From IMG/VR virus record IMGVR_UViG_2693429557_000011: a DNA stretch of 29,524 nucleotides; one strand, written 5' to 3'. Each line of letters starts with the position of its first letter. Within the stretch, counting starts at the first letter, position 1. The notes beneath the pieces were generated by a model that was given only the letters and a program-made list of their open reading frames with translations, was not told where the DNA came from and ran no database searches. Origin of the DNA: a virus. Lineage: Duplodnaviria > Heunggongvirae > Uroviricota > Caudoviricetes. Shown here one piece after another: positions 1,935 to 14,655 of the stretch. Position numbers and translations under genes: made by a program.

Positions 1935-2915
1935 CTAACGTCCTGCTTTTAACAATAACCAGATAAACACCGGCGCACCCAACGTTGCGGTGACCACGCC
2001 AATAGGCAGCTCTGCGGCAGCTAATGCCAGGCGCGCTACAATATCGGCCAGCAGCACTGCGCTCGCCCCTGCCAGCGCGCAGCCGGGAAGTAATACGCGA
2101 TGATCGGTTAAACCACACAACCGAAGAATATGTGGGATCACCAGACCAATAAAGCCGATAGCACCCGCCAGCGCCACACTGACGCCAACCATCCAGCCGG
2201 TCGCTGCCACCAGCACATTGCGCCAGAACCACAGGGGTAAACCCAGTTGCCGCGCCGAGATCTCGCCAAGTGCTAACATATTCATCGGCCTGGACTGACA
2301 ACAGATCCACAACAACACGGGGATCAATGCCAGCATCAGCCAGCTTTGCCGCCAGTCTACGCCGCCAAAACCGCCCATCATCCAGTACATCAGCTGACGT
2401 AAATCAACAGAGGTGGAAAAGTAGATAGCCCACGTCATTAGTGCGCTACAGATAATCCCTAATGCAACGCCAGCCAGCAATAACCGACTGGTCGAAAGAT
2501 GACGACGGGCGAAACGTAAGAGTATTAAAGTGATGATAAGCGCGCCAGCAATCGCACACAGCCCTAGCGCCCAGTTGGGGAGTTGCCCTTGCCCAAGCAA
2601 TACCGCGGCGATAAGCCCCACGCCTGCGCCGTTAGAGACGCCAAGTAGTCCAGGTTCTGCCAGAGGATTTTCAAACAACGCCTGCATTACAGCGCCGGAT
2701 ATAGCCAGCGCCGCACCAACCAGCAATACAGCCAGCGTACGTGGCAGGCGAATTTGCCAGACGAACAGTTCGCCACGAGGAGTAAACCAGTCACCTGGCG
2801 AAATCCATTGTTCACCGGCGCAAAGGCTTAAGAGAAGCGCCAGCAGCATCAAAACTGACAGGCATAATAACCAGCGAATATTTTGTCGCTGTTGTTGGCG
2901 GGCAAGTGTCAGCAT
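1935..2915 (-). CDS. btuC: Vitamin B12 ABC transporter permease
   Basis: 326-aa highly hydrophobic multi-pass membrane ORF of FecCD/BtuC permease type; first gene of the btuCED cluster. Confidence 0.9.
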
Positions 2916-2974
2916 GGTATCCGTTCTGCTGAAGTGTCATGGCGTTGATTTTACGGTGACTCTTCGACAGTGAA

Positions 2975-2998
2975 AAGAAAAAAGGCCGCAGAGCGGCC
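2975..2998 (-). terminator. Rho-independent terminator for a leftward transcript (GGCCGC / GCGGCC stem then U-run on the minus strand)
   Basis: Stem GGCCGC (2984-2989) and GCGGCC (2993-2998) with a 3-nt loop; a run of A on the plus strand at 2975-2983 gives a U-tract after the stem on the minus strand; lies about 110 bp downstream of the 3108-3662 gene. Confidence 0.5.
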
Positions 2999-3107
2999 AT
3001 AAACACAAACAAAAATCAATAAGTTAGGTAATTATCAAAGACTTACAGACACACAAAAACACAGCCAACCACAACAAATAACAGAGATGTGGTCAATTTG
3101 TGGATCA

Positions 3108-3662
3108 TCAGCCAACAAATTTAGCAACAAATACAGCAACCGCCGCTGTGAAAATGGTTGTGCACACTGGCACAATAATGCCACTCCAACGCCACTTCGT
3201 ATTATCATCAACCTTGTCAAACCGCCGATTCATCTCATCCATAATCTTGTCAAAGCGTTTATCCATCGCTTCGGTAAGCTCACCCTTCAGGCTGTTAATG
3301 TCTGATTTGAGCTGCTCTTTCAGGTTAGCTGTATCAGATTTAAGCTCACCTTTCAGATTCGCAATATCGCATTCAAGATCACCTTTCAGATGTGCTATGT
3401 CTGCTTTGAGTTCACCTTTCACCTCACCAACATCGGCTTTAGTTGAGAGGTTTGTAGTGCGTTCAGCAAGCGTCGCAAGGTCGTTTCTTGTTAGCGATAA
3501 ATCACCTTCGAGCCGCTCAATTCGCCTTTCAAGTTTATCTGACATTCCGCCTCCACTACTGCCGCCATCGCCACCATGATAAAGCACATCACGCTCAGAA
3601 TGCGACACACTACCTGCTGAATTACCGAAAAGATTTCTTGCTACATTACCCATTATCACCAT
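3108..3662 (-). CDS. Coiled-coil protein with five tandem 11-residue repeats and a C-terminal transmembrane anchor (XhlA-like architecture, function unknown)
   Basis: 184-aa ORF with a Gly/Ser-rich N-terminus, repeats LKGELKADIAH / LKGDLECDIAN / LKGELKSDTAN / LKEQLKSDINS / LKGELTEAMDK, and a C-terminal hydrophobic segment IIVPVCTTIFTAAVAVFVAKFV; its start overlaps the stop of the upstream gene (translational coupling). The antisense plus-strand ORF is a low-complexity Ser-rich artefact. Confidence 0.6.
   Translation of the reverse strand: MVIMGNVARNLFGNSAGSVSHSERDVLYHGGDGGSSGGGMSDKLERRIERLEGDLSLTRNDLATLAERTTNLSTKADVGEVKGELKADIAHLKGDLECDIANLKGELKSDTANLKEQLKSDINSLKGELTEAMDKRFDKIMDEMNRRFDKVDDNTKWRWSGIIVPVCTTIFTAAVAVFVAKFVG
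3276..3440. repeat. 5 x 33-bp in-frame tandem repeat inside the coiled-coil gene
   Basis: Five consecutive 33-bp units (3276-3308, 3309-3341, 3342-3374, 3375-3407, 3408-3440) sharing the core CACCTTTCAG; they encode the 11-residue protein repeats. Confidence 0.8.
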
Positions 3663-4146
3663 CCTGCGCTTTGTCTTTCTCCAACCACTTCAGCACCGCA
3701 GACGTACGATAAAGGCTCAGGTAACCACAATTCAGGCAATGCAGCGTGTAATAAGTTTTGCGCATATCAGGTATGCTCTTAACATCACCCAAAAAAGCAT
3801 AAGATACATAATGCTTTATGTTCTCTTTAATTAACTCACTCTGTTCCTCCAGGGGTAGATTGTTAAAATTTTCTGGTTTCTTATTTTTATCCCAGCAAAG
3901 ATCCATACTTTCTGGAACAGATAATCGCGACGATCCACATGAAGGGCAGACACTGGAGACCCCCTTCTCAGACAAGAAACGGAAGAAGATTTCTGGCGTA
4001 ATCTCCATCAGCCGCTCTTTATGTTTTTTGACACGACTCATCGACTTCTTATTGATTTCATCAGCTTCTTCTTTGCATTTATCTTCTATATATTTCGATA
4101 GTAAATAGTCATATAACTCTTTTTTTGTAGGTTTTTTTATTTCCAT
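3646..4146 (-). CDS. Hypothetical zinc-ribbon protein (CxxC...CxxC), AT-rich cargo gene
   Basis: 166-aa ORF with CPSCGSS and CLNCGY pairs and a Lys/Glu-rich N-terminus; visibly AT-rich compared with the flanking phage backbone; begins 3 nt after the integrase stop on the same strand. Confidence 0.55.
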   Translation of the reverse strand: MEIKKPTKKELYDYLLSKYIEDKCKEEADEINKKSMSRVKKHKERLMEITPEIFFRFLSEKGVSSVCPSCGSSRLSVPESMDLCWDKNKKPENFNNLPLEEQSELIKENIKHYVSYAFLGDVKSIPDMRKTYYTLHCLNCGYLSLYRTSAVLKWLEKDKAQDGDNG

Positions 4147-4148
4147 AG

Positions 4149-5126
4149 TTACATTCCTCCCAAGGGATTAAACCTCACCGCATCCTGCAAGTAATCCGGC
4201 GCAAGATGGGCATAAATCATCGTTGTCTGAATCTTTGCGTGCCCCAGAATTTTCTGGAGCGTCAGAATATTGCCGCCGTTCATCATGAAATGACTGGCGA
4301 AGGTGTGGCGCAGCGCATGAACAGCCTGGCCGTCAGGAACATCAGGTGCGACCGTTTTGATGACATCGCGAACCAATGAATAATCCAGCGTCGGAAACAC
4401 CAGTTTCCCGCCCCGTTTTTTGATCTTTTCAAACAGGCTTTCAGAAATAGGAACGGTACGGTTTTTGCTGTTCTTCGTTTTTGAAAAAGTGATTCGACAA
4501 TGAAGAACACGGCGCTGCTCCAGTGCCGCTACCTCGCCCCATCGCGCCCCGGTCGACAGAAGGATTTCGACGGCCAGCCGTTCATCGGGATTTTCAGCCA
4601 GTGCATCCAGCAACTGAACACATTCAGACTTACTCAGATATCCCATTTCACGCTCGTTAACCTTCATTCCTTTAAGGCCTTGAACGGGGTTATCGTTAAG
4701 AAAATGGCCGGATGAGATGAGTGCGGTAAACATCGCGCTTAACGCCCCAATCTCTCGATTTATGGTGCTGGGCTGTATCCCCTGCTCTATCCTGGACACA
4801 CGTAGCTCGGTGAGCATCGTTGTATTAAGTTTATGCACGCACGGGTCATCCATTGCCTCACTCAAGCGCAGCAATTTAAGGCGCGTGTTATGCCCTGACT
4901 TCATTAGCTGGCCGTGGTATTTCCACCACAAGTCAATAAGCACTGACAGCGGACGGCGATCAATGGAGTTTCCTTTCCACTCATTGTTATGCTGTTGCGC
5001 CAGCACCCACCGCTCATATAAAACTGCATCCGATTTCGTTTTAAATTTTTTGCGAATGCGTTTGCCTTTACGCCCCTCAGGACGCATGTCAAGAAGATAC
5101 CCTCCCGGAATTGATTTTATGCTCAT
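4149..5126 (-). CDS. int: P2-type tyrosine integrase
   Basis: C-terminal catalytic box AVHALRHTFASHF ... LGHAKIQTTMIYAHL (R, H-x-x-R, Y) and overall similarity to P2 Int. Start taken at the internal Met (MSIKSIPGG...), which parallels the P2 Int N-terminus and avoids overlap with the C gene; the longer ORF to 5276 is less likely. Confidence 0.9.
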   Translation of the reverse strand: MSIKSIPGGYLLDMRPEGRKGKRIRKKFKTKSDAVLYERWVLAQQHNNEWKGNSIDRRPLSVLIDLWWKYHGQLMKSGHNTRLKLLRLSEAMDDPCVHKLNTTMLTELRVSRIEQGIQPSTINREIGALSAMFTALISSGHFLNDNPVQGLKGMKVNEREMGYLSKSECVQLLDALAENPDERLAVEILLSTGARWGEVAALEQRRVLHCRITFSKTKNSKNRTVPISESLFEKIKKRGGKLVFPTLDYSLVRDVIKTVAPDVPDGQAVHALRHTFASHFMMNGGNILTLQKILGHAKIQTTMIYAHLAPDYLQDAVRFNPLGGM

Positions 5127-5175
5127 TCGTGAAGCCCCAGCGTTACAAGACCACCATGCCCCCAGCGTTCCATGA

Positions 5176-5487
5176 TTAGCCGGGCTGTGTGCCAGTCTTG
5201 CGGGATTTTTGAGAAGACGATGTGTTTTCTGGCCCATCAGGGGAGAGAGAAGGACTGATCTGCCCAGCAGCCTCATTTGTTTCGTTACTCATCAACCACG
5301 TAGTGTATTTTTTAAATTCCGGGTGCATTGTGATTTTCAGTAAAACCTCCGTTCCCACACCTCGAATACCAGTCTCGTATTGCTTAACCGTACCAACCGC
5401 AATACCTATTGAATCCGCGAACTTTGCCTGACTAAGCCCCTCAGATTCTCGAATTGCTTTTAGCTTCTTTGATATCTCTATTGACAT
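5176..5487 (-). CDS. Immunity repressor, P2 C-like (XRE-type HTH)
   Basis: About 103 aa from the internal Met (MSIEISKKLKAIRESEGLSQAKFADSIGIAVGTVKQYETG), a classic helix-turn-helix; sits directly upstream of int on the same strand and faces the cox-like gene, as C does in P2. Confidence 0.75.
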   Translation of the reverse strand: MSIEISKKLKAIRESEGLSQAKFADSIGIAVGTVKQYETGIRGVGTEVLLKITMHPEFKKYTTWLMSNETNEAAGQISPSLSPDGPENTSSSQKSRKTGTQPG

Positions 5488-5518
5488 GGTGTGCACCTGA
5501 ATACTATATTGGTTATCA
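5481..5518 (+). promoter_or_regulatory. Candidate early rightward promoter (Pe-like): -35 TTGACA (5481-5486), -10 TATATT (5505-5510), with repeat GGTTATCA at the predicted start site
   Basis: Consensus -35 hexamer with 18-bp spacing to a good -10; the -35 overlaps the C start codon, consistent with face-to-face Pe/Pc in P2-like switches. GGTTATCA occurs twice (5511-5518 and 5571-5578). Confidence 0.45.
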
Positions 5519-5582
5519 GTTGAGTACCACTTGACGCTACAAAGAGCCACAAATAGCACCAGATTGAATAGGTTATCACACC

Positions 5583-5861
5583 ATGGCAAAAGTCCTTAAC
5601 ACATACGAACAAGCGGATTTTGAGCGTTTGGCGGCGTTCTACCCATACCGTAATGAACATGGGCTACCGGTACTTGAAGAAAGCCTAGAGGATTATGCGA
5701 AACGCACAAATCAAAGCATTCTCGCTGTAAGAAGGCAGGCTGATAGATCGGTAATTCCCGTTACTCAAGAAGGAAGAAACACAAAACGCAAAGTAAATCT
5801 CTTCGCAATTTTCCTGAAAACCATCAGAAACGCAGAGAAATACGTGCAGATGACAAAATAA
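5583..5861 (+). CDS. Cox-like early regulator (positional assignment; no clear sequence similarity to P2 Cox recognised)
   Basis: 92-aa first gene of the rightward early operon, divergent from the C repressor; ATG preceded by a short purine-rich stretch. Confidence 0.4.
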   Translation: MAKVLNTYEQADFERLAAFYPYRNEHGLPVLEESLEDYAKRTNQSILAVRRQADRSVIPVTQEGRNTKRKVNLFAIFLKTIRNAEKYVQMTK

Positions 5862-10820: not shown

Positions 10821-11780
10821 ATGAAAATTTGTATCGACGACGGCTCCACCAACATCAAGCTGGCATGGACTGAGAACGGCGAACGCCGCAACGCCATCAG
10901 CCCGAACAGCTTCAAGTCGGAATGGTCTGCGCCGTTCGGTGGCATGCAGCCCGCGAACTACATGCTTGATGGCGTGCGCTATGGTTTTGATCCGGTCAGC
11001 GATCGCTTTGTCCAGACAACCGACACGCAATACCAGTACAGCGATGTAAATGTCATTGCCATTCATCACGCGCTGGTCAAATCAGGCATCACGCCACAGG
11101 AGGTGGATGTGGTTGTCACCCTGCCACTGAGCGAGTATTTCGACACAAACGCACAGCCGGACATGGCCAACATCAACCGCAAAAAAGCGAACGTTATGCG
11201 CCCGGTGGAGTACCAGAACGGCGAAGCATTCACTATCCGTAACGTGCGGGTTATGCCTGAATCCATTCCGGCTGGCTTTAAGGCACTGGCTGACATGAGT
11301 CCGTTTGAATCCCTGCTGATTGTGGATTTGGGCGGAACCACGCTGGATGTGGCAAAGGTTCAGGGGCAACTGGCAGGTATCAGCCAGGTGTTTTGCGATC
11401 CACACGTAGGCGTTTCTCTGATGGCCGATGCCGTACTGTCGGTGATGGCCACTAACGGTATGCGCACCAGTCACCACATCGCCAATACCATTATCGAACA
11501 TCGCCATGATGAAGCCTGGCTGCGCCAGCACATCCACAATGACGCGCATTACGCCAGCCTGATGGCGGTTATTCGTGAAAAGGAAGAAACACTGAAACAA
11601 CGCGTGATCCGCGCGCTGGCGGGTTTTTCGGGTTACGGGCGGGTGATGGTTGTCGGTGGAGGGGCGGAGATTGTGGCACCCGCTATCCGCGAAGCCTGCG
11701 GAGTTAATGCGACTTTCATCGCGGACGGGGTGCCACAGTTTGCTCTGGTTAATGGGCTGTACGCAATGGACAAGGAGTAA
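10821..11780 (+). CDS. parM: ParM/StbA-family actin-like segregation ATPase
   Basis: 319-aa ORF with N-terminal IDDGSTNIKL phosphate-1 motif, SPNSFK, YQYSDVNVIAIHHAL, PESIPAGF, LIVDLGGTTLD, VVGGGAE and a C-terminal LVNGLY; size and motif order match plasmid R1 ParM as recalled from memory. Confidence 0.8.
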   Translation: MKICIDDGSTNIKLAWTENGERRNAISPNSFKSEWSAPFGGMQPANYMLDGVRYGFDPVSDRFVQTTDTQYQYSDVNVIAIHHALVKSGITPQEVDVVVTLPLSEYFDTNAQPDMANINRKKANVMRPVEYQNGEAFTIRNVRVMPESIPAGFKALADMSPFESLLIVDLGGTTLDVAKVQGQLAGISQVFCDPHVGVSLMADAVLSVMATNGMRTSHHIANTIIEHRHDEAWLRQHIHNDAHYASLMAVIREKEETLKQRVIRALAGFSGYGRVMVVGGGAEIVAPAIREACGVNATFIADGVPQFALVNGLYAMDKE

Positions 11781-11784
11781 ACCA

Positions 11785-12096
11785 ATGACGACACCAACCA
11801 GACGGATAAGTTTCTATCTGAAGCCTGCGGCCGTCAAGAACGAAAGCGAAGCATGCGCCTGGCTGGGCAGCCTTACACCAGAAGCCCGCAAAAGCGGCCA
11901 ACGCGTGGCTTTTCTGGCCGGGCTGGCACTTCTGAAAATGAATCCAGCAGAGGCTTACCGACTGGCTGCATGGGCTGACGATGAGGCGTTATCGGTGACA
12001 CAAACCAGGACAGAACGCCCCGTGCCACAGCCAGTACCAACCGCACAGATAACCAGTCAGATAGCAGGGAATATCCGGGCATTATTTCCTGAATGA
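11785..12096 (+). CDS. parR: ParR-like centromere-binding adaptor (putative)
   Basis: 103 aa from the ATG 4 nt after the parM stop; RRISFYLKP and AFLAGLALL segments and a C-terminal IRALFP resemble R1 ParR (RRTIAFKLNP / ALTAGLAL / LRSLFP) as recalled. The longer upstream ORF start at 11650 lies inside parM and is rejected. Confidence 0.55.
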   Translation: MTTPTRRISFYLKPAAVKNESEACAWLGSLTPEARKSGQRVAFLAGLALLKMNPAEAYRLAAWADDEALSVTQTRTERPVPQPVPTAQITSQIAGNIRALFPE

Positions 12097-12156: not shown

Positions 12157-12681
12157 ATGAAAAAATACGAATACATGCTAATGAAAGAAGCACTGCGGGC
12201 TGGTCTGGCTCCCTGTCCTGTATCCGTAGAAGCTGTTGTTGGGAACACGATTTTCCGAACGCTGCGAAATCGCGTATCCGTGAAGATGGTTCACCAACCA
12301 CCCAAATCTACCAGCATGATCTATCTGCCGCTGCCCGAGGCTATCAAACTTATGCGTTCGCTGAAATTTGCGATTTGGATGCAGACACAAATCAACAAAG
12401 CGGTGCAAAACACCTTCGTTAAGAGACTAATACCGGAGCTTGCTGCCAGATGTGCAAAATGTACCAGACCCGCACTTCAATTTGATCTGTCATTGATTCA
12501 ACAAGCTACGGAGGCAGAACTGTACCGCCTGTCACCTATCCGTGATGCTCACACGGAAGCATCAGAAATGTTCCGGCTCATGTTTCAATTTAATTTTGCC
12601 GTTCGACGCACACGCGTTCAGGTCAATCGCATGATGCAGGAGCAGGAAGAGTTAACACAGTACAAAGGGGGCAGCCAGTGA
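12157..12681 (+). CDS. Hypothetical protein (174 aa), accessory locus
   Basis: ATG with an upstream GAGG; no family recognised; stop overlaps the GTG start of the next ORF. Confidence 0.5.
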   Translation: MKKYEYMLMKEALRAGLAPCPVSVEAVVGNTIFRTLRNRVSVKMVHQPPKSTSMIYLPLPEAIKLMRSLKFAIWMQTQINKAVQNTFVKRLIPELAARCAKCTRPALQFDLSLIQQATEAELYRLSPIRDAHTEASEMFRLMFQFNFAVRRTRVQVNRMMQEQEELTQYKGGSQ

Positions 12682-12917
12682 GTAATTCAGCACGACTACA
12701 GCTTGGTTTTTCACCGCTATCAAAAACCATCGTATTGGCAAAAATGCGTGACTTAGGAGACGGAACAAAACGCCGCGTAGGAAATGATCGCGGTCGCGAT
12801 GTAACCAACGAGGCCGCTCAACTCGTTTGGCATCTAGTCATGGCAGAAGGCGGTGAAATTAATTGGGAGCTGGATGATGGTTCTCGTATGATTTTGAGGG
12901 CCGAGAAGAGTAAATAG
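12678..12917 (+). CDS. Hypothetical protein (79 aa), translationally coupled to the 174-aa gene
   Basis: GTG start overlapping the upstream TGA (GTGA); acidic C-terminal half; no family recognised. Confidence 0.4.
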   Translation: MSNSARLQLGFSPLSKTIVLAKMRDLGDGTKRRVGNDRGRDVTNEAAQLVWHLVMAEGGEINWELDDGSRMILRAEKSK

Positions 12918-12931
12918 CTCAAGGGGGATTA

Positions 12932-13117
12932 ATGCTAAATGATGATGAAGAAGAGCTGCTTATGCAGGAATGGTCGCTCGGTGATTATGATAATGGTGAA
13001 AATGGGTGCCCGCATTGTGGCCGTTATCGTTTATGTATCTGCCAGAATGGAAAACACAGATGTGAAAAGTGCAATTGGTCTCCGGAACTTAATGACTACG
13101 TGCCGATCGAGTGGTAG
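12932..13117 (+). CDS. Small Cys-rich zinc-binding-like protein (61 aa)
   Basis: Six cysteines in CPHC-x5-CxC-x6-CxxC spacing and an acidic N-terminus; not similar to the Ogr zinc finger as recalled. Confidence 0.45.
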   Translation: MLNDDEEELLMQEWSLGDYDNGENGCPHCGRYRLCICQNGKHRCEKCNWSPELNDYVPIEW

Positions 13118-13608
13118 AGGTAAGTCACACTAGGTGTTTTTTAGTTGATTTTATAAATGCACAATAGTGCACAAATTTGCACAATTTTTTTGAACGACTT
13201 TTTGCCCTTCCGGCCCGCGTGGCGGCTGGATCCGTCAAGGATCCGTGCATGCACAAAAAAACGCGTTTTTTCTGCGCGCAGGTGACGGGGGAACAGCCCG
13301 CGTTTCAGGGGGTAAATAGCATTCCCTGAACGATGTCGCAGAGATACAACAGAATGGCTGTATTTCTCACGCTGAGCGTGAAAAAGACGTGAGGGCTTTT
13401 GATTTGATGGGGTGAAAGGTAAGGCCGTCAAAATCGCACTGAGACGGCGAGAATATGCAGTCAACGAGGTGGGATTGCGTAAGAGTCTGACTGTCGATGA
13501 TGGCAATCAGCAGGAAAGCGTCGTGAAATTATCTGACTGATACAGGAGCTGGAGAGTCGGGGCATAAATTTTTTATGCCCCGGCGAAGCAGCAGACAAGC
13601 GAAGCGCG
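13118..13608. other. Non-coding cos-proximal region downstream of Q (probable packaging/cos region) with phased repeats and a palindrome
   Basis: In P2 the cos site lies just beyond the 3-prime end of Q. Here TGCACAA occurs at 13158, 13168 and 13178 (10-bp phasing), GGATCCGT at 13228 and 13239, and an A7-CGCG-T6 palindrome at 13255-13271. No convincing ORF; the minus-strand ORF 13141-13506 lacks coding character. Confidence 0.4.
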
Positions 13609-14655
13609 TCAGGATGTGGGCTGGGTGTCTAACAGTGCGTAAGGGTTAAAGCGGATCACCTCTTCGCCAAGCCAGTCATTGATGTGCTTCATGGCCTCCA
13701 TGACGGGCATCAGCTCGTTAATTGCGTAAACCCGCGCGGCCTTCTCCACATCACCAAACGCACTTTTTTCGCCCGGCATCGCCCCCATCAGTTGCGGCGG
13801 AACGCGGTGCGCAGCCAGCACATCATCACGGGATGCCGCCTTAACATTCATGAACTCATCCTTTGCGGTGATCTGCTGGAACGGCAAAATTTGCACCCCC
13901 TCTTTGCCCCCGTTGGGCGCATGAATGAGCACGTTTTTAAACGCACCACCACCACGTGCCCCCTGTAGCGTTTCTTTCAGGGAGTCCATGCTTTCGCGGT
14001 TTACCTGCGCTGCACCGATGTAGATGATGCACCCGGCGTGGGATCCGTTGTCGTAGTACAGTTTTCTGAACATGTCCGCCGAATGAGAAAGGCTGGCCGA
14101 GAGTAATGCGCCAAGATATTCCGGCATGCCGTAGATTTCCTGGTTAATATCCGGATTCATCAGGTGGCACACTTTGCCAGGACGAAACTGAAACGCATCC
14201 TTGCCATCCTGCACATACCACCATGATTCAAGATCGCTTCCGCGTCGCATGTATTTCGCCAGGGCGTGCCGTAATTTAAGCGGTTCGCCGAGCATATTGC
14301 TCCGAAGCTCAAGGAATGCGTTACCGAACACAAACCAGTCCAGCGCCAGCGCCGAGAAATCCTGCCGGGAAAGCAGCGGGTGCGGAATATAGCAGCCGAG
14401 CAATACATTGCGCTTAAAGTAAAGCGCAGACTGATGCCAGGACGTTTGCCGGGCAGCTCTTGCCAGACCGTACCAGTCCACCGGGGTTTCATACCACCGC
14501 CCGTTATCAGCACAGTACATATTGTCCAGCAGGTCATGCCCGGTCAGGCGGTAAGGACCATCAAATGTGAATGCACTGAGCGACGATTCTTTCCTGAGCG
14601 CATCAGCGAGATCAATGCGTGAACTCATGCGCACTTTTTTATTTTTTCTGCTCAT
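13609..14655 (-). CDS. Q: Portal protein (P2 gpQ-like)
   Basis: 348-aa ORF, size and position as P2 Q, directly downstream of and overlapping the terminase gene on the same strand. Confidence 0.9.
   Translation of the reverse strand: MSRKNKKVRMSSRIDLADALRKESSLSAFTFDGPYRLTGHDLLDNMYCADNGRWYETPVDWYGLARAARQTSWHQSALYFKRNVLLGCYIPHPLLSRQDFSALALDWFVFGNAFLELRSNMLGEPLKLRHALAKYMRRGSDLESWWYVQDGKDAFQFRPGKVCHLMNPDINQEIYGMPEYLGALLSASLSHSADMFRKLYYDNGSHAGCIIYIGAAQVNRESMDSLKETLQGARGGGAFKNVLIHAPNGGKEGVQILPFQQITAKDEFMNVKAASRDDVLAAHRVPPQLMGAMPGEKSAFGDVEKAARVYAINELMPVMEAMKHINDWLGEEVIRFNPYALLDTQPTS

What the first reader, a model, noticed from the sequence alone, without database searches (positions are those of the whole stretch)
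3108..4146. AT-rich two-gene cassette between the integrase and the prophage/host junction: zinc-ribbon protein plus repeat-containing membrane-anchored coiled-coil protein
Seen in sequence: two translationally coupled minus-strand genes immediately downstream of int (3-nt gap), ended by an intrinsic terminator at 2975-2998; base composition is visibly more AT-rich than the surrounding phage backbone. The distal protein has five 11-residue repeats and a C-terminal transmembrane anchor; the proximal one has two CxxC pairs. Established: in P2 the int 3-prime end abuts attP with no genes between, so these are accessory cargo (a moron). Inference: a membrane-tethered coiled-coil protein paired with a zinc-ribbon partner could be a superinfection-exclusion or abortive-infection device, or a lysogenic-conversion surface factor.
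Basis: partly seen in the sequence, partly recalled or inferred. Interest (0 to 1): 0.7.

Follow-up and report, generated by a model that had tools for sequence, protein, structure and literature searches.

The report
Prophage zinc-ribbon plus membrane coiled-coil cassette
Two small, tightly coupled genes tucked between the integrase and the end of a P2/186-like E. coli prophage are one version of a fast-diversifying, uncharacterised gene pair that hops between accessory slots of many temperate phages and most likely protects the lysogen against other phages, though no function has been tested.

Summary
Gene A (3646-4146, minus strand, 166 aa, four invariant Cys) and gene B (3108-3653, minus strand, 181 aa) lie between int and attR of a P2/186-like prophage inserted between ihfA and btuC. 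B has a disordered Gly-rich tail, a hendecad coiled coil with a DUF1640-type beta-layer motif, and a C-terminal membrane anchor. The genes overlap by 8 nt, are AT-rich and are under purifying selection. The terminator that ends them is the 25-bp att core, a copy of the ihfA terminator.

New findings:
- **Variable slot.** 306 of 5,426 complete E. coli genomes carry this prophage family, with near-identical int and att arm but swappable contents. 23 have this cassette, about 105 have diverged homologous pairs, and 158 have one unrelated ORF.
- **Conserved pair.** In 45 of 50 evaluable distinct viral-contig A sequences, B follows directly.
- **Mobile module.** It occurs in four phage slots: int-att, cI-int, directly after cI, and the HK97 gp15 moron slot.
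- **Modular variation.** A type co-varies with B's N-terminal tail, not with its stalk.

No curated family, defence model, fold match or paper assigns a function. My best reading is a lysogen-expressed exclusion or abortive-infection module acting at the inner face of the membrane (about 0.45). That rests on context alone.

The parts
2974..2998 (-). att core (attR copy). This 25-bp repeat is the ihfA intrinsic terminator and ends the cI-int-A-B transcript.
   Evidence: The identical 25-mer AAAGAAAAAAGGCCGCAGAGCGGCC sits at attL next to ihfA and in K-12 attB. The hairpin has -11.6 kcal/mol, z -3.6, and is followed by a U-run.
2999..3107 (.). Phage-side att arm. It is non-coding, 32% GC, and forms the conserved right flank of the variable slot.
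   Evidence: It is 94-98% identical in prophages that carry different cargo.
3108..3653 (-). Gene B, 181 aa, a tail-anchored coiled-coil protein. RefSeq names it 'DUF1640/CCDC90 family' and calls it from 3545.
   Evidence: The model shows residues 1-35 disordered, a helix at 37-147 and a helix at 153-180. dN/dS is 0.14-0.23.
3546..3653 (-). B N-terminal tail (residues 1-36). It is variable and ends in the Gly-rich linker GGDGGSSGGG. It co-varies with the type of A.
   Evidence: Alignments are. The Mantel test gives A vs tail r = 0.64, p about 2e-4. The divergent block against L030/L007 spans A plus roughly the first 100 nt of B.
3432..3449 (-). Beta-layer motif L-S-T-K-A-D (B residues 69-74).
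   Evidence: T71 and K72 are invariant in the 23-sequence alignment and nearly so in the 10-sequence one. The motif [aliphatic]-A-T-K-[polar]-[DE] was reported for DUF1640 membrane proteins (PMC4786415).
3198..3428 (-). Hendecad (11-residue) repeat stalk, B residues 76-152. Copy number varies between homologues.
   Evidence: TRF finds a 33-nt period. Periodicity is 3.67-3.7 residues. Homologue lengths step by 11 aa: 112, 123, 134, 145, 156.
3120..3185 (-). C-terminal transmembrane anchor, B residues about 157-178.
   Evidence: The maximum 19-residue Kyte-Doolittle score is 2.43. It is a helix in the model and is conserved in every B homologue examined.
3646..3653 (-). 8-nt overlap between the B start and the A stop (ATGGGTAA), indicating translational coupling.
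   Evidence: The same overlap occurs in Salmonella, E. coli-variant and Providencia pairs.
3646..4146 (-). Gene A, 166 aa, a soluble Cys4 zinc-ribbon protein assigned to PHROG 4293 (function unknown).
   Evidence: The family has 88 representatives among 1.84 billion. The model has pLDDT 81. No fold match was found.
3937..3948 (-). First CxxC knuckle of A (C67-P-S-C70).
   Evidence: It is invariant in alignments A2 and A3.
3727..3738 (-). Second CxxC knuckle of A (C137-L-N-C140).
   Evidence: It is invariant in alignments A2 and A3.
4156..4160 (-). GGAGG ribosome-binding site for A. It lies inside the last codons of int, 9 nt upstream of the ATG.
   Evidence: Read directly from the sequence.
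4149..5126 (-). Tyrosine integrase, the conserved left flank of the slot. The start is as in RefSeq; the longest ORF runs to 5276.
   Evidence: Pfam Int_N and Phage_integrase. It is 98-100% identical up to its stop codon in prophages with different cargo.
5176..5487 (-). cI-type HTH repressor, the first gene of the co-directional operon cI-int-A-B.
   Evidence: RefSeq annotation of a locus 99.9-100% identical across window 2900-5300. No sigma-70-like promoter was predicted on the minus strand between cI and A.

Best explanation
The cassette is a mobile two-gene phage accessory module (a moron). I expect it to be expressed in the lysogen and to work as a membrane-tethered complex at the cytoplasmic face of the inner membrane, most likely to exclude or abort infection by other phages.

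**Shown**
- A and B are real genes under purifying selection and are translationally coupled.
- They are conserved as a pair across Enterobacterales and Aeromonas prophages.
- They occupy a slot with near-identical flanks and swappable contents.
- The same module sits in at least four different accessory slots of P2-like, lambdoid and siphovirus-like prophages.
- A plus B's N-terminal tail are exchanged as one block against a constant B stalk.

**Inferred**
- The pair is transcribed by read-through of the cI-int lysogenic transcript and stops at the att-core terminator.
- B forms a parallel, probably trimeric, hendecad coiled coil about 16 nm long. It is anchored by its C-terminal helix and points into the cytoplasm.
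- B's flexible Gly-linked N-terminal tail docks the zinc-ribbon protein A.
- A, the most variable part, is the specificity or sensor subunit. B is the tether or effector.
- On infection the complex either blocks genome entry and early steps at the membrane, or perturbs the membrane (Rex-like abortive infection).
For: **Variable slot**
- The prophage family is in 306 of 5,426 E. coli genomes.
- This cassette is in 23, the L029-type pair in 86, the L002-type pair in 17-19, and an unrelated 131-aa ORF in 158.
- Identity drops sharply at the int stop codon and recovers at the att arm.

**Homologous alternatives**
- The alternative cargos are diverged homologues with the same motifs.

**Pair conservation**
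- The pair recurs in Salmonella, E. coli, Providencia, Klebsiella, Dickeya, Aeromonas and a metagenomic phage.
- B follows A directly in 45 of 50 evaluable distinct A sequences from IMG/VR.

**Positions**
- cI-int-A-B in this window.
- cI-(Flk_N)-A-B-int in Dickeya and Aeromonas.
- Directly after an S24-type cI, where lambda carries rexAB.
- Between the DUF6246 protein and the tape-measure gene, beside KilA-N/ORF6N and lipoprotein genes. [quoted passage not shown]

**Known hotspot**
- int-att and the tail-to-cI region are already listed as P2 hotspots (PMC13586616; bioRxiv 10.1101/2024.10.15.618418).

**Modular diversification**
- A identity tracks B-tail identity (r = 0.64, p about 2e-4) better than stalk identity (r = 0.37).
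- A 2x2 mosaic of A/tail type against stalk type is seen.

**Other support**
- dN/dS is 0.08-0.23.
- The cassette lies inside a 32-kb P2-like phage record deposited as an unnamed plasmid, separate from the chromosome.
- SNIPE is a precedent for defence at the inner face of the membrane (PMC13190303).
Against: - There is no sequence or fold link to any characterised defence or exclusion protein.
  - PADLOC-DB gave no significant hit for A, B or ten diverse relatives. Only weak, coiled-coil-biased hits to LmuB, ZorA and LeoBC appeared, with E of 4e-5 or worse.
- No paper mentions these proteins.
- Guilt by location is weak. Morons also carry virulence, stress and conversion genes. Half of the sister prophages carry an unrelated small ORF in the slot.
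- Expression in the lysogen, oligomeric state, A-B binding, topology and any phenotype are all untested.
- The A/B-tail co-variation could be simple physical linkage, since the two are adjacent in the DNA.
- B has no recognisable catalytic or pore-forming domain.
- A occurs alone in a Morganella-type lineage.
Confidence: 0.45

Rival explanations
1. The pair is a lysogenic-conversion or host-physiology module. It would be a membrane-tethered scaffold that changes a host process such as stress tolerance, ribosome or protein sequestration at the membrane, or envelope physiology, and would benefit the lysogen without acting on phages.
For: - B shares its stalk and anchor with DUF1640/CCDC90-type proteins, whose eukaryotic members are described as a mitochondrial scaffold regulating metabolism.
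- From my own knowledge, the tail-anchored architecture resembles the E. coli stationary-phase proteins ElaB, YqjD and YgaM.
- Morons are known to carry many non-defence functions (PMC3594210).
- The hosts are often pathogenic E. coli (STEC, ETEC) and Salmonella.
Against: - Allelic diversification with block-wise swapping of A plus the B tail is more typical of conflict genes than of housekeeping modulators.
- No DUF883, ElaB or other host-physiology family was hit.
- The canonical DUF1640 head is absent.
Confidence: 0.2
2. The pair is a toxin-antitoxin-like addiction module. B would be a membrane-active toxin and A its cognate, translationally coupled antitoxin, stabilising the prophage. This overlaps with abortive infection if phage-triggered.
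For: - The gene order and overlap fit type II modules: small soluble protein first, then the effector.
- A and B's tail vary in a cognate-like way.
- A survives alone in some lineages.
- B is frameshifted while A stays intact in one Dickeya strain.
- Another small toxin gene (hok/gef) sits at the other att end of the same prophage family.
- A sub-threshold resemblance links a diverged B to XhlA, and B to holin-type PHROGs.
Against: - There is no similarity to any known TA family.
- At 100-210 aa with a long, length-variable stalk, B is unlike known small membrane toxins.
- No toxicity data exist.
Confidence: 0.12
3. The pair is a prophage self-regulation device. B would hold the zinc-ribbon protein A at the membrane to tune integration, excision, repressor activity or induction.
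For: - In P2-like phages the pair is always next to int, cI or ogr and co-directional with them.
- Zinc ribbons often bind nucleic acids. Only weak zinc-ribbon family hits were found.
Against: - In roughly 50-kb siphovirus-like prophages the same module sits in the tail operon, far from any int or cI gene.
- Half of otherwise near-identical sister prophages lack it and carry an unrelated ORF, so it is dispensable for lysogeny.
Confidence: 0.1
4. The pair is a lysis accessory factor, an XhlA- or holin-like membrane protein with a partner that acts late in the lytic cycle.
For: - There are weak matches to PHROG holin and hemolysin families, E 0.004-0.02.
- The diverged B of ETEC4069 scores 18.5 bits to Pfam XhlA.
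Against: - All these matches are below threshold (XhlA gathering score is 34.7 bits).
- The pair is transcribed with cI and int, opposite to the early lytic genes that begin just beyond cI.
- The near-identical RM8426 copy of this prophage has a full holin, endolysin and spanin cassette elsewhere.
Confidence: 0.04
5. The ORFs are chance or decaying sequences with no function.
For: RefSeq leaves A unannotated in at least one genome and starts B at a later codon.
Against: - dN/dS is 0.08-0.23.
- Four Cys and one Trp are invariant across the aligned diverse members of a family that has 88 representatives at 50% identity.
- The reading frames stay open and the two genes stay coupled in dozens of diverged loci.
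Confidence: 0.01

Closest known systems
Lambda RexA/RexB (abortive infection genes in the cI operon)
   Same: Both are two-gene modules co-transcribed with the repressor in the lysogen. Each has one soluble protein and one membrane protein. A metagenomic lambdoid relative carries A-B directly downstream of an S24-type cI, which from my own knowledge is where lambda carries rexAB.
   Different: No sequence similarity was found. From my own knowledge, RexB is a polytopic channel-like protein, whereas B has a single C-terminal helix and a long coiled coil. The mechanism of A-B is untested.
HK97 gp15 moron (superinfection exclusion; PMC3594210)
   Same: In roughly 50-kb siphovirus-like prophages, A-B lies between the DUF6246 protein (at the tail assembly chaperone position) and the tape-measure gene, the slot described for gp15. 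Both are small inner-membrane proteins expected to be made from the prophage.
   Different: gp15 is a single YebO-like protein. There is no homology, and A-B has a soluble zinc-ribbon partner.
DUF1640 / CCDC90-like family (Pfam PF07798; MCUR1, CCDC90B and prokaryotic homologues)
   Same: B has the beta-layer motif (LSTKAD) at the start of the stalk, a coiled-coil stalk and a C-terminal membrane anchor. RefSeq names B 'DUF1640/CCDC90 family'. Solitary DUF1640 genes also occur in Liberibacter SC1/SC2 and APSE phages.
   Different: The Pfam score is 24.1 bits against a gathering score of 33.5, and it covers only the stalk and anchor part of the profile. A disordered Gly-rich tail replaces the N-terminal globular head. 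The obligate zinc-ribbon partner has not been described for that family.
P2 accessory hotspots (old/tin, Z/fun, and the minor int-att and tail-to-cI hotspots)
   Same: The pattern is the same: conserved flanks and swappable cargo. The int-att slot is reported to hold 3% of P2 defence systems (PMC13586616).
   Different: The cargo here matches none of the systems those surveys recognise (PADLOC). About 40% of the slot's contents in this prophage lineage (129 of 306 genomes) are versions of one gene-pair family rather than unrelated systems.
SNIPE (membrane-bound nuclease acting during genome injection; PMC13190303)
   Same: It shows that a defence protein can be constitutively tethered at the inner membrane and act on incoming phage DNA from the cytoplasmic side.
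   Different: A-B has no nuclease or other enzymatic domain and no homology to SNIPE. The comparison is conceptual only.
PBSX XhlA and the E. coli tail-anchored proteins ElaB/YqjD/YgaM
   Same: All are short proteins with an N-terminal coiled coil and a single C-terminal membrane helix. There are weak XhlA-type matches.
   Different: All matches are below threshold, and no DUF883 hit was found. The genomic context differs. The ElaB comparison rests on my own knowledge and was not tested here.

Membership tests
DUF1640 / CCDC90-like (PF07798) | Pfam profile match at or above the gathering score (33.5 bits) | tested here: not met
   The score is 24.1 bits, E 3.7e-5. B residues 56-176 match profile positions 68-170 of 175. 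Some close relatives carry precomputed PF07798 hits and RefSeq uses the name.
DUF1640 / CCDC90-like (PF07798) | Beta-layer motif [aliphatic]-A-T-K-[polar]-[DE] at the start of the stalk (PMC4786415) | tested here: met
   B has L-S-T-K-A-D at residues 69-74, and T71 and K72 are invariant or nearly so. Relatives have FATKSD. The Dickeya homologue has about six tandem ATKADLQxx nine-residue units.
DUF1640 / CCDC90-like (PF07798) | Single C-terminal transmembrane anchor | tested here: met
   The 19-residue Kyte-Doolittle score is 2.43 at residues 159-177 of 181. It is a helix in the model.
DUF1640 / CCDC90-like (PF07798) | Folded N-terminal head domain (head-neck-stalk-anchor plan). This feature is taken from my own knowledge of the family literature, which was not readable here. 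| tested here: not met
   Residues 1-35 are predicted disordered (pLDDT below 50), are sequence-variable and end in a poly-Gly linker.
DUF1640 / CCDC90-like (PF07798) | Trimeric parallel coiled coil | not testable with these tools
   Only monomer prediction was available. The 3.67-residue periodicity and the beta-layer motif are compatible with a trimer.
Zinc ribbon (Cys4) | Two CxxC knuckles conserved across the family | tested here: met
   C67, C70, C137 and C140 are invariant in the A2 alignment, and the equivalent four Cys are invariant in A3. In the model the knuckles flank beta strands.
Zinc ribbon (Cys4) | Match to a curated zinc-ribbon family at threshold | tested here: not met
   The best match is Zn_ribbon_13 at 17.3 bits against a threshold of 23. 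All others are weaker.
Phage moron (Juhala/Hendrix sense) | Extra gene(s) present or absent between conserved neighbours | tested here: met
   int and the att arm are 94-100% identical while the contents differ in 306 genomes.
Phage moron (Juhala/Hendrix sense) | Base composition unlike the surrounding genome | tested here: met
   The cassette is 42.1% GC, against 49.4% for int and 53.4% for the prophage part of the window.
Phage moron (Juhala/Hendrix sense) | Own promoter and terminator | tested here: inconclusive
   A terminator is present, but it is the att core. The consensus scan found no sigma-70-like promoter on the minus strand between cI and A. The 2-nt gap after int suggests read-through from the cI-int operon.
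Phage moron (Juhala/Hendrix sense) | Expression from the repressed prophage | not testable with these tools
   No transcriptome data were available. Expression is inferred only from co-orientation with cI and int.
Known anti-phage defence systems (PADLOC-DB v2.0) | Significant match of either protein to a defence-system model | tested here: not met
   Only coiled-coil-biased weak hits appeared: LmuB 3.8e-5, LeoBC 9.2e-5, ZorA 1.1e-4. A had none of significance. Ten diverse relatives were also negative. Newer DefenseFinder models could not be run.
Lambda Rex-type exclusion | Homology to RexA or RexB, or a polytopic membrane partner | tested here: not met
   No such family appeared in the Pfam, NCBIfam or PADLOC output. 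B has a single membrane helix. Only the operon position is shared.
XhlA (PF10779) | Pfam match at the gathering score (34.7 bits) | tested here: not met
   XhlA is not among the 25 best of the 26 Pfam families that hit the window's B at E up to 1. The diverged ETEC4069 B scores 18.5 bits.

The most novel reading that the evidence does not exclude
A-B would be a previously unrecognised class of prophage-borne immune module. A trimeric alpha/beta-type coiled-coil stalk, tail-anchored in the inner membrane, would present polymorphic zinc-ribbon 'heads' (A) on flexible Gly-linked tails at the cytoplasmic face. There they would intercept incoming phage DNA or ejected proteins. The exchangeable block of A plus the B tail would set target specificity, and the repeat-variable stalk would set reach.
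Probability: 0.25. Interest if true: 0.8.

Novelty: new variant of a known kind. Interest (0 to 1): 0.55.

Why it matters
- **A concrete candidate.** If the pair is an exclusion or abortive-infection module, it is a compact defence system of about 1 kb with no characterised relative. It is carried by P2-like, lambdoid and siphovirus-like prophages of E. coli (including STEC and ETEC), Salmonella, Klebsiella, Dickeya, Aeromonas and others. Current defence-finding models miss it.
- **A testable design.** The natural allelic series swaps A plus the B tail against a constant stalk, and stalk length varies in 11- or 9-residue steps. This works as a ready-made domain-swap experiment for asking how a membrane-tethered sensor recognises phages.
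- **Annotation fixes.** RefSeq starts B too late and sometimes omits A.
- **Support for a minor hotspot.** The result gives concrete content to the little-studied int-att hotspot of P2-like phages.
- **Value even if not defence.** It would still give the first genomic handle on bacterial DUF1640-type proteins, whose function is unknown.

Tried and rejected
**Family scans**
- Pfam, NCBIfam, PHROGs and PADLOC scans of both proteins gave only unknown-function PHROGs (4293 and 9415) and sub-threshold, coiled-coil-biased hits.
- PADLOC on alternative cargos and ten diverse relatives gave nothing.
- The weak LeoBC/LeoC (Eleos), LmuB and ZorA hits were treated as compositional, not as homology.

**Structure**
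- It had no BFVD hit at E of 0.001 or better; the best was E 0.005 with a query-normalised TM-score of 0.34.
- The afdb50 library was unavailable.
- The model of B is a single long helix with low confidence (pLDDT 59), so I did not use it for a fold search.
- A PDB sequence search with B gave nothing significant.

**Collections**
- No protein match for A was found in 50,697 deposited phage records or 72,556 plasmids.
- The DNA matches no deposited phage apart from a short int segment.

**Literature**
- Searches on DUF1640, the RefSeq protein accessions, and tail-anchored, coiled-coil or exclusion terms found no paper on these proteins.
- The structural paper on MCUR1/CCDC90B was not in the library.

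**RNA**
- The Rfam scan of 2800-5700 gave only a sub-threshold STnc540 hit over the host-phage junction.

**Ideas rejected**
- A cassette-specific terminator: it is the att core.
- Random slot contents: they are mostly homologous pairs.
- A module strictly linked to int or cI: it also occurs in tail operons.
- A surface-exposed conversion factor: the inferred topology argues against it.

**Technical failure**
- A single profile of all distant A members was too diverse for back-translated scanning. I used three subgroup alignments instead.
Full report
**Setting**

The left 3 kb of the window is E. coli nlpC-btuD-btuE-btuC, on the minus strand. Homology to prophage-free genomes such as K-12 stops at window 2998. 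From 2999 onward the window is a P2/186-like prophage. It carries a cI-type repressor, a tyrosine integrase, a replication endonuclease, a P2-family capsid and contractile tail genes.

The prophage is inserted between ihfA and btuC. A 25-bp core, AAAGAAAAAAGGCCGCAGAGCGGCC, is present at attR (window 2974-2998), at attL next to ihfA in a near-identical lysogen, and once in K-12. On the minus strand this core is the ihfA intrinsic terminator. Its hairpin has -11.6 kcal/mol, z = -3.6 against shuffles, and is followed by a U-run.

**Checking the observation**

- **Gene A** runs 3646-4146 on the minus strand (166 aa). It starts 2 nt after the int stop codon and has a GGAGG ribosome-binding site inside int.
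- **Gene B** overlaps the end of A by 8 nt (ATGGGTAA) and runs 3108-3653 (181 aa). RefSeq instead starts B at an internal Met (window 3545, 145 aa) and leaves a 100-nt 'gap'.
- **The long form of B is better supported.** The same start/stop overlap recurs in Salmonella, a second E. coli allele and Providencia, at 45-58% protein identity. It also recurs in 45 distinct viral-contig pairs. In some homologues the tail carries a conserved motif upstream of any internal Met, for example GFSIPY shared between E. coli ETEC4069 and Aeromonas.
- **Composition.** GC is 38.5% for A and 45.2% for B, against 49.4% for int and 53.4% for the prophage part of the window.
- **Selection.** Both genes are under purifying selection between close alleles, with dN/dS of 0.08-0.23. 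The counts are small and the comparisons are not independent.

**Anatomy of A**

A is soluble, with no hydrophobic segment and a pI of 8.1. Its four Cys (C67/C70 and C137/C140) and one Trp are invariant across the aligned diverse members. The family is small: 88 representatives at 50% identity among 1.84 billion proteins.

The conserved pattern is (V/I)TPxxFxxFLxxKG...CxxCG ... YxxxCxNCG ... VxxW(L/I/V)E, followed in most members by an acidic tail. The AlphaFold model (pLDDT 81) has a long N-terminal helix, a small sheet carrying the two knuckles and a C-terminal helix. It has no significant structural neighbour in the PDB or BFVD. The only family assignment is PHROG 4293, of unknown function.

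**Anatomy of B**

B has four parts.

- **Tail.** An N-terminal tail of about 36 residues is predicted disordered and varies in sequence. It ends in a Gly-rich linker.
- **Start of the helix.** The conserved opening is M-x-D-x-LERRIERLEGD, followed by the motif L-S-T-K-A-D.
- **Stalk.** Five clear and two degenerate 11-residue repeats follow, with hydrophobic periodicity of 3.67-3.7 residues.
- **Anchor.** A single C-terminal membrane helix has only about 3 residues after it.

The LSTKAD motif matches the beta-layer consensus that Hartmann et al. reported at the start of the stalk of DUF1640 membrane proteins (PMC4786415). Repeat number varies between homologues in exact 11-residue steps. The Dickeya homologue instead carries about six tandem nine-residue ATKADLQxx units. 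Another relative has 7-residue repeats.

B scores below the Pfam DUF1640 threshold and lacks a folded head. It shares the neck, stalk and anchor of that family but is not a canonical member. B has no signal peptide and A is a Cys4 protein, so I infer that both face the cytoplasm.

**The slot is variable and mostly holds versions of the same pair**

A prophage with this int and this 108-bp att arm is present in 306 of 5,426 complete E. coli genomes. Identity is 98-100% through int up to its stop codon. It collapses over the cargo and returns to 94-98% in the att arm.

| Slot contents | Genomes |
|---|---|
| This cassette | 23 |
| 120-aa + 145-aa pair (L029 type) | 86 |
| 127-aa + 99-aa pair (L002 type) | 17-19 |
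| 132-aa A with a near-identical B stalk | a few |
| Single unrelated 131-aa ORF | 158 |

Reading the alternative pairs shows that they are diverged homologues. Each has a Cys4 protein with the same FxxFL...CxxCG...CxNCG...W motif. Each also has a protein with a variable tail, a coiled coil and a C-terminal membrane helix. The L029-type B additionally has the Gly linker, the LExRV helix start and FATKSD; the shorter L002-type B lacks these.

**The pair is conserved and mobile**

The pair occurs in several arrangements.

- **cI-int-A-B-att** in E. coli, Salmonella and a 32-kb Klebsiella P2-like phage record deposited as an unnamed plasmid, separate from the chromosome. The last shows that the phage genome itself carries the pair.
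- **cI-(Flk_N)-A-B-int** in Dickeya and Aeromonas.
- **Next to ogr** in Providencia.
- **Directly after an S24-type cI** in a metagenomic lambdoid phage, where lambda carries rexAB.

Three subgroup scans of IMG/VR returned 97 loci with 53 distinct A sequences. Of 50 evaluable ones, 45 are followed within -37 to +3 nt by a B-type protein, 4 are solo A genes of a Morganella type, and 1 has a different small membrane protein.

In the P2-sized contigs the neighbours are cI, Flk_N and int. In the roughly 50-kb contigs the order is tail terminator, major tail protein (Big_2 domain), DUF6246, then A and B, then the tape-measure gene. KilA-N or ORF6N genes often sit just upstream of A, and lipoprotein genes often sit just downstream of B. 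I take DUF6246 to be the tail assembly chaperone from its position only. On that reading, this is the slot described for the HK97 gp15 moron, a proven superinfection-exclusion protein (PMC3594210).

The module is therefore a moron that moves between accessory slots. This argues against a role tied to integration or repressor control.

**Modular diversification**

Across 13 pairs, A identity correlates with B-tail identity (r = 0.64, Mantel p about 2e-4). The correlation with stalk-plus-anchor identity is weaker (r = 0.37).

A clean 2x2 mosaic exists.

- The window has long A, tail type 1 and the E. coli stalk.
- L030 and L042 have the 132-aa A, tail type 2 and the same stalk at 95% identity.
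- Salmonella L004 and L044 repeat the two A/tail types on a Salmonella stalk.

Against L030 and L007, the diverged DNA block is A plus roughly the first 100 nt of B. This fits a model in which B's tail docks A and the two are exchanged as one specificity unit. Because they are adjacent in the DNA, linkage alone could give the same pattern.

**What it most likely does**

Nothing links either protein to a characterised function.

- PADLOC gave only weak coiled-coil hits.
- There is no fold match.
- A has no match in deposited phages or plasmids.
- No paper mentions these proteins.

The inference rests on context.

- The pair is co-transcribed with cI and int, or sits in classic moron slots.
- No promoter was predicted between cI and A.
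- The slot has hotspot behaviour, and int-att and the tail-to-cI region are listed as P2 hotspots.
- Alleles are swapped block-wise.
- The architecture is a soluble variable subunit plus a membrane-anchored constant subunit.

I therefore favour a lysogen-expressed exclusion or abortive-infection module acting at the inner face of the membrane, with confidence about 0.45. It would be functionally analogous to RexAB or gp15, and conceptually to SNIPE. Rivals are:

- a host-physiology or conversion scaffold (0.20);
- a toxin-antitoxin-like addiction pair (0.12);
- prophage self-regulation (0.10);
- a lysis accessory (0.04).

**Novelty and verdict**

The kind of thing is known: a phage moron in a known, minor hotspot. 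The gene-pair family, its architecture and its allelic structure are uncharacterised, and the defence models I could run (PADLOC-DB v2.0) do not detect them. I rate it a new variant of a known kind, with interest 0.55.

Noticed in passing
window 10821-12096 (+): The prophage carries a plasmid-type partition pair, ParM (StbA_N + ParM_N) and a Plasmid_stab_B protein, between the replication endonuclease gene and the portal gene. This is the classic old/tin hotspot position. A related 32-kb Klebsiella P2-like record (CP052639.1) is deposited as an 'unnamed plasmid'. Some of these phages may therefore persist as phage-plasmids.
   Followed up: partly
window 12157-13600: Between the partition genes and the portal gene (13609-14655, minus strand) lie ORFs with no Pfam match, for example 12157-12681 (174 aa). 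Here the window differs from the otherwise near-identical O26 RM8426 prophage, so this second hotspot is also variable between close relatives.
   Followed up: partly
L038 11822-14159 (NZ_CP028116.1; the attL end, outside the window): At the other prophage end of the near-identical lysogen, a 500-aa PIN-domain protein and a Hok/Gef toxin gene flank ogr, just inside attL. Both att-proximal ends of this prophage family therefore carry accessory cargo.
   Followed up: no
L028 407-802 (E. coli 1303) and 157 other genomes: The commonest alternative content of the int-att slot is a single 131-aa ORF with no Pfam or PADLOC match and no resemblance to A or B.
   Followed up: partly
L032 5431-6063 and L033 5431-5983 (Dickeya zeae): The Dickeya B homologue has about six tandem nine-residue ATKADLQxx units, which are repeated beta-layer motifs. 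In a second strain the gene is split by a frameshift inside these repeats while A stays intact.
   Followed up: partly
L032 4285-4896, L035 4188-4991, and several IMG/VR loci (L098, L100, L114, L115, L139): In Dickeya, Aeromonas and related P2-like prophages, a Flk_N-domain protein sits between cI and the A-B pair. The Dickeya copy (203 aa) ends in a hydrophobic, tail-anchor-like segment. Several membrane-tethered proteins may share the lysogenic operon.
   Followed up: no
L034 1752-2231; L125, L126, L130, L137: A Morganella-type lineage has a solo A homologue with an extended acidic C-terminus and no B. Instead a 55-70-aa protein with two hydrophobic segments lies about 150-190 nt downstream. 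In L034 this sits next to type I-F Csy1-4 genes.
   Followed up: partly
L030 941-1354 (E. coli 06-00048); window 3545-3653: There are two annotation problems in RefSeq. The A gene is not called at all in some genomes, and B is started at an internal Met, which hides the 8-nt overlap and the variable N-terminal tail.
   Followed up: yes
window 2916-3039 (-): There is a sub-threshold Rfam match to the enterobacterial sRNA STnc540 (22 bits against a gathering score of 38). It spans the btuC-proximal host sequence, the att core and the first 41 bases of phage DNA. If real, the prophage insertion splits or rewires the ihfA-btuC intergenic transcript.
   Followed up: no
L040 2917-3294 (Liberibacter phage SC1) and L041 2890-3462 (APSE-1 P47): Solitary DUF1640-type proteins, without an annotated A-like partner gene beside them, occur next to replication genes in Liberibacter phages and in the aphid-symbiont phage APSE-1. 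In APSE-1 the gene overlaps an annotated 'tail fibre' ORF on the opposite strand.
   Followed up: no
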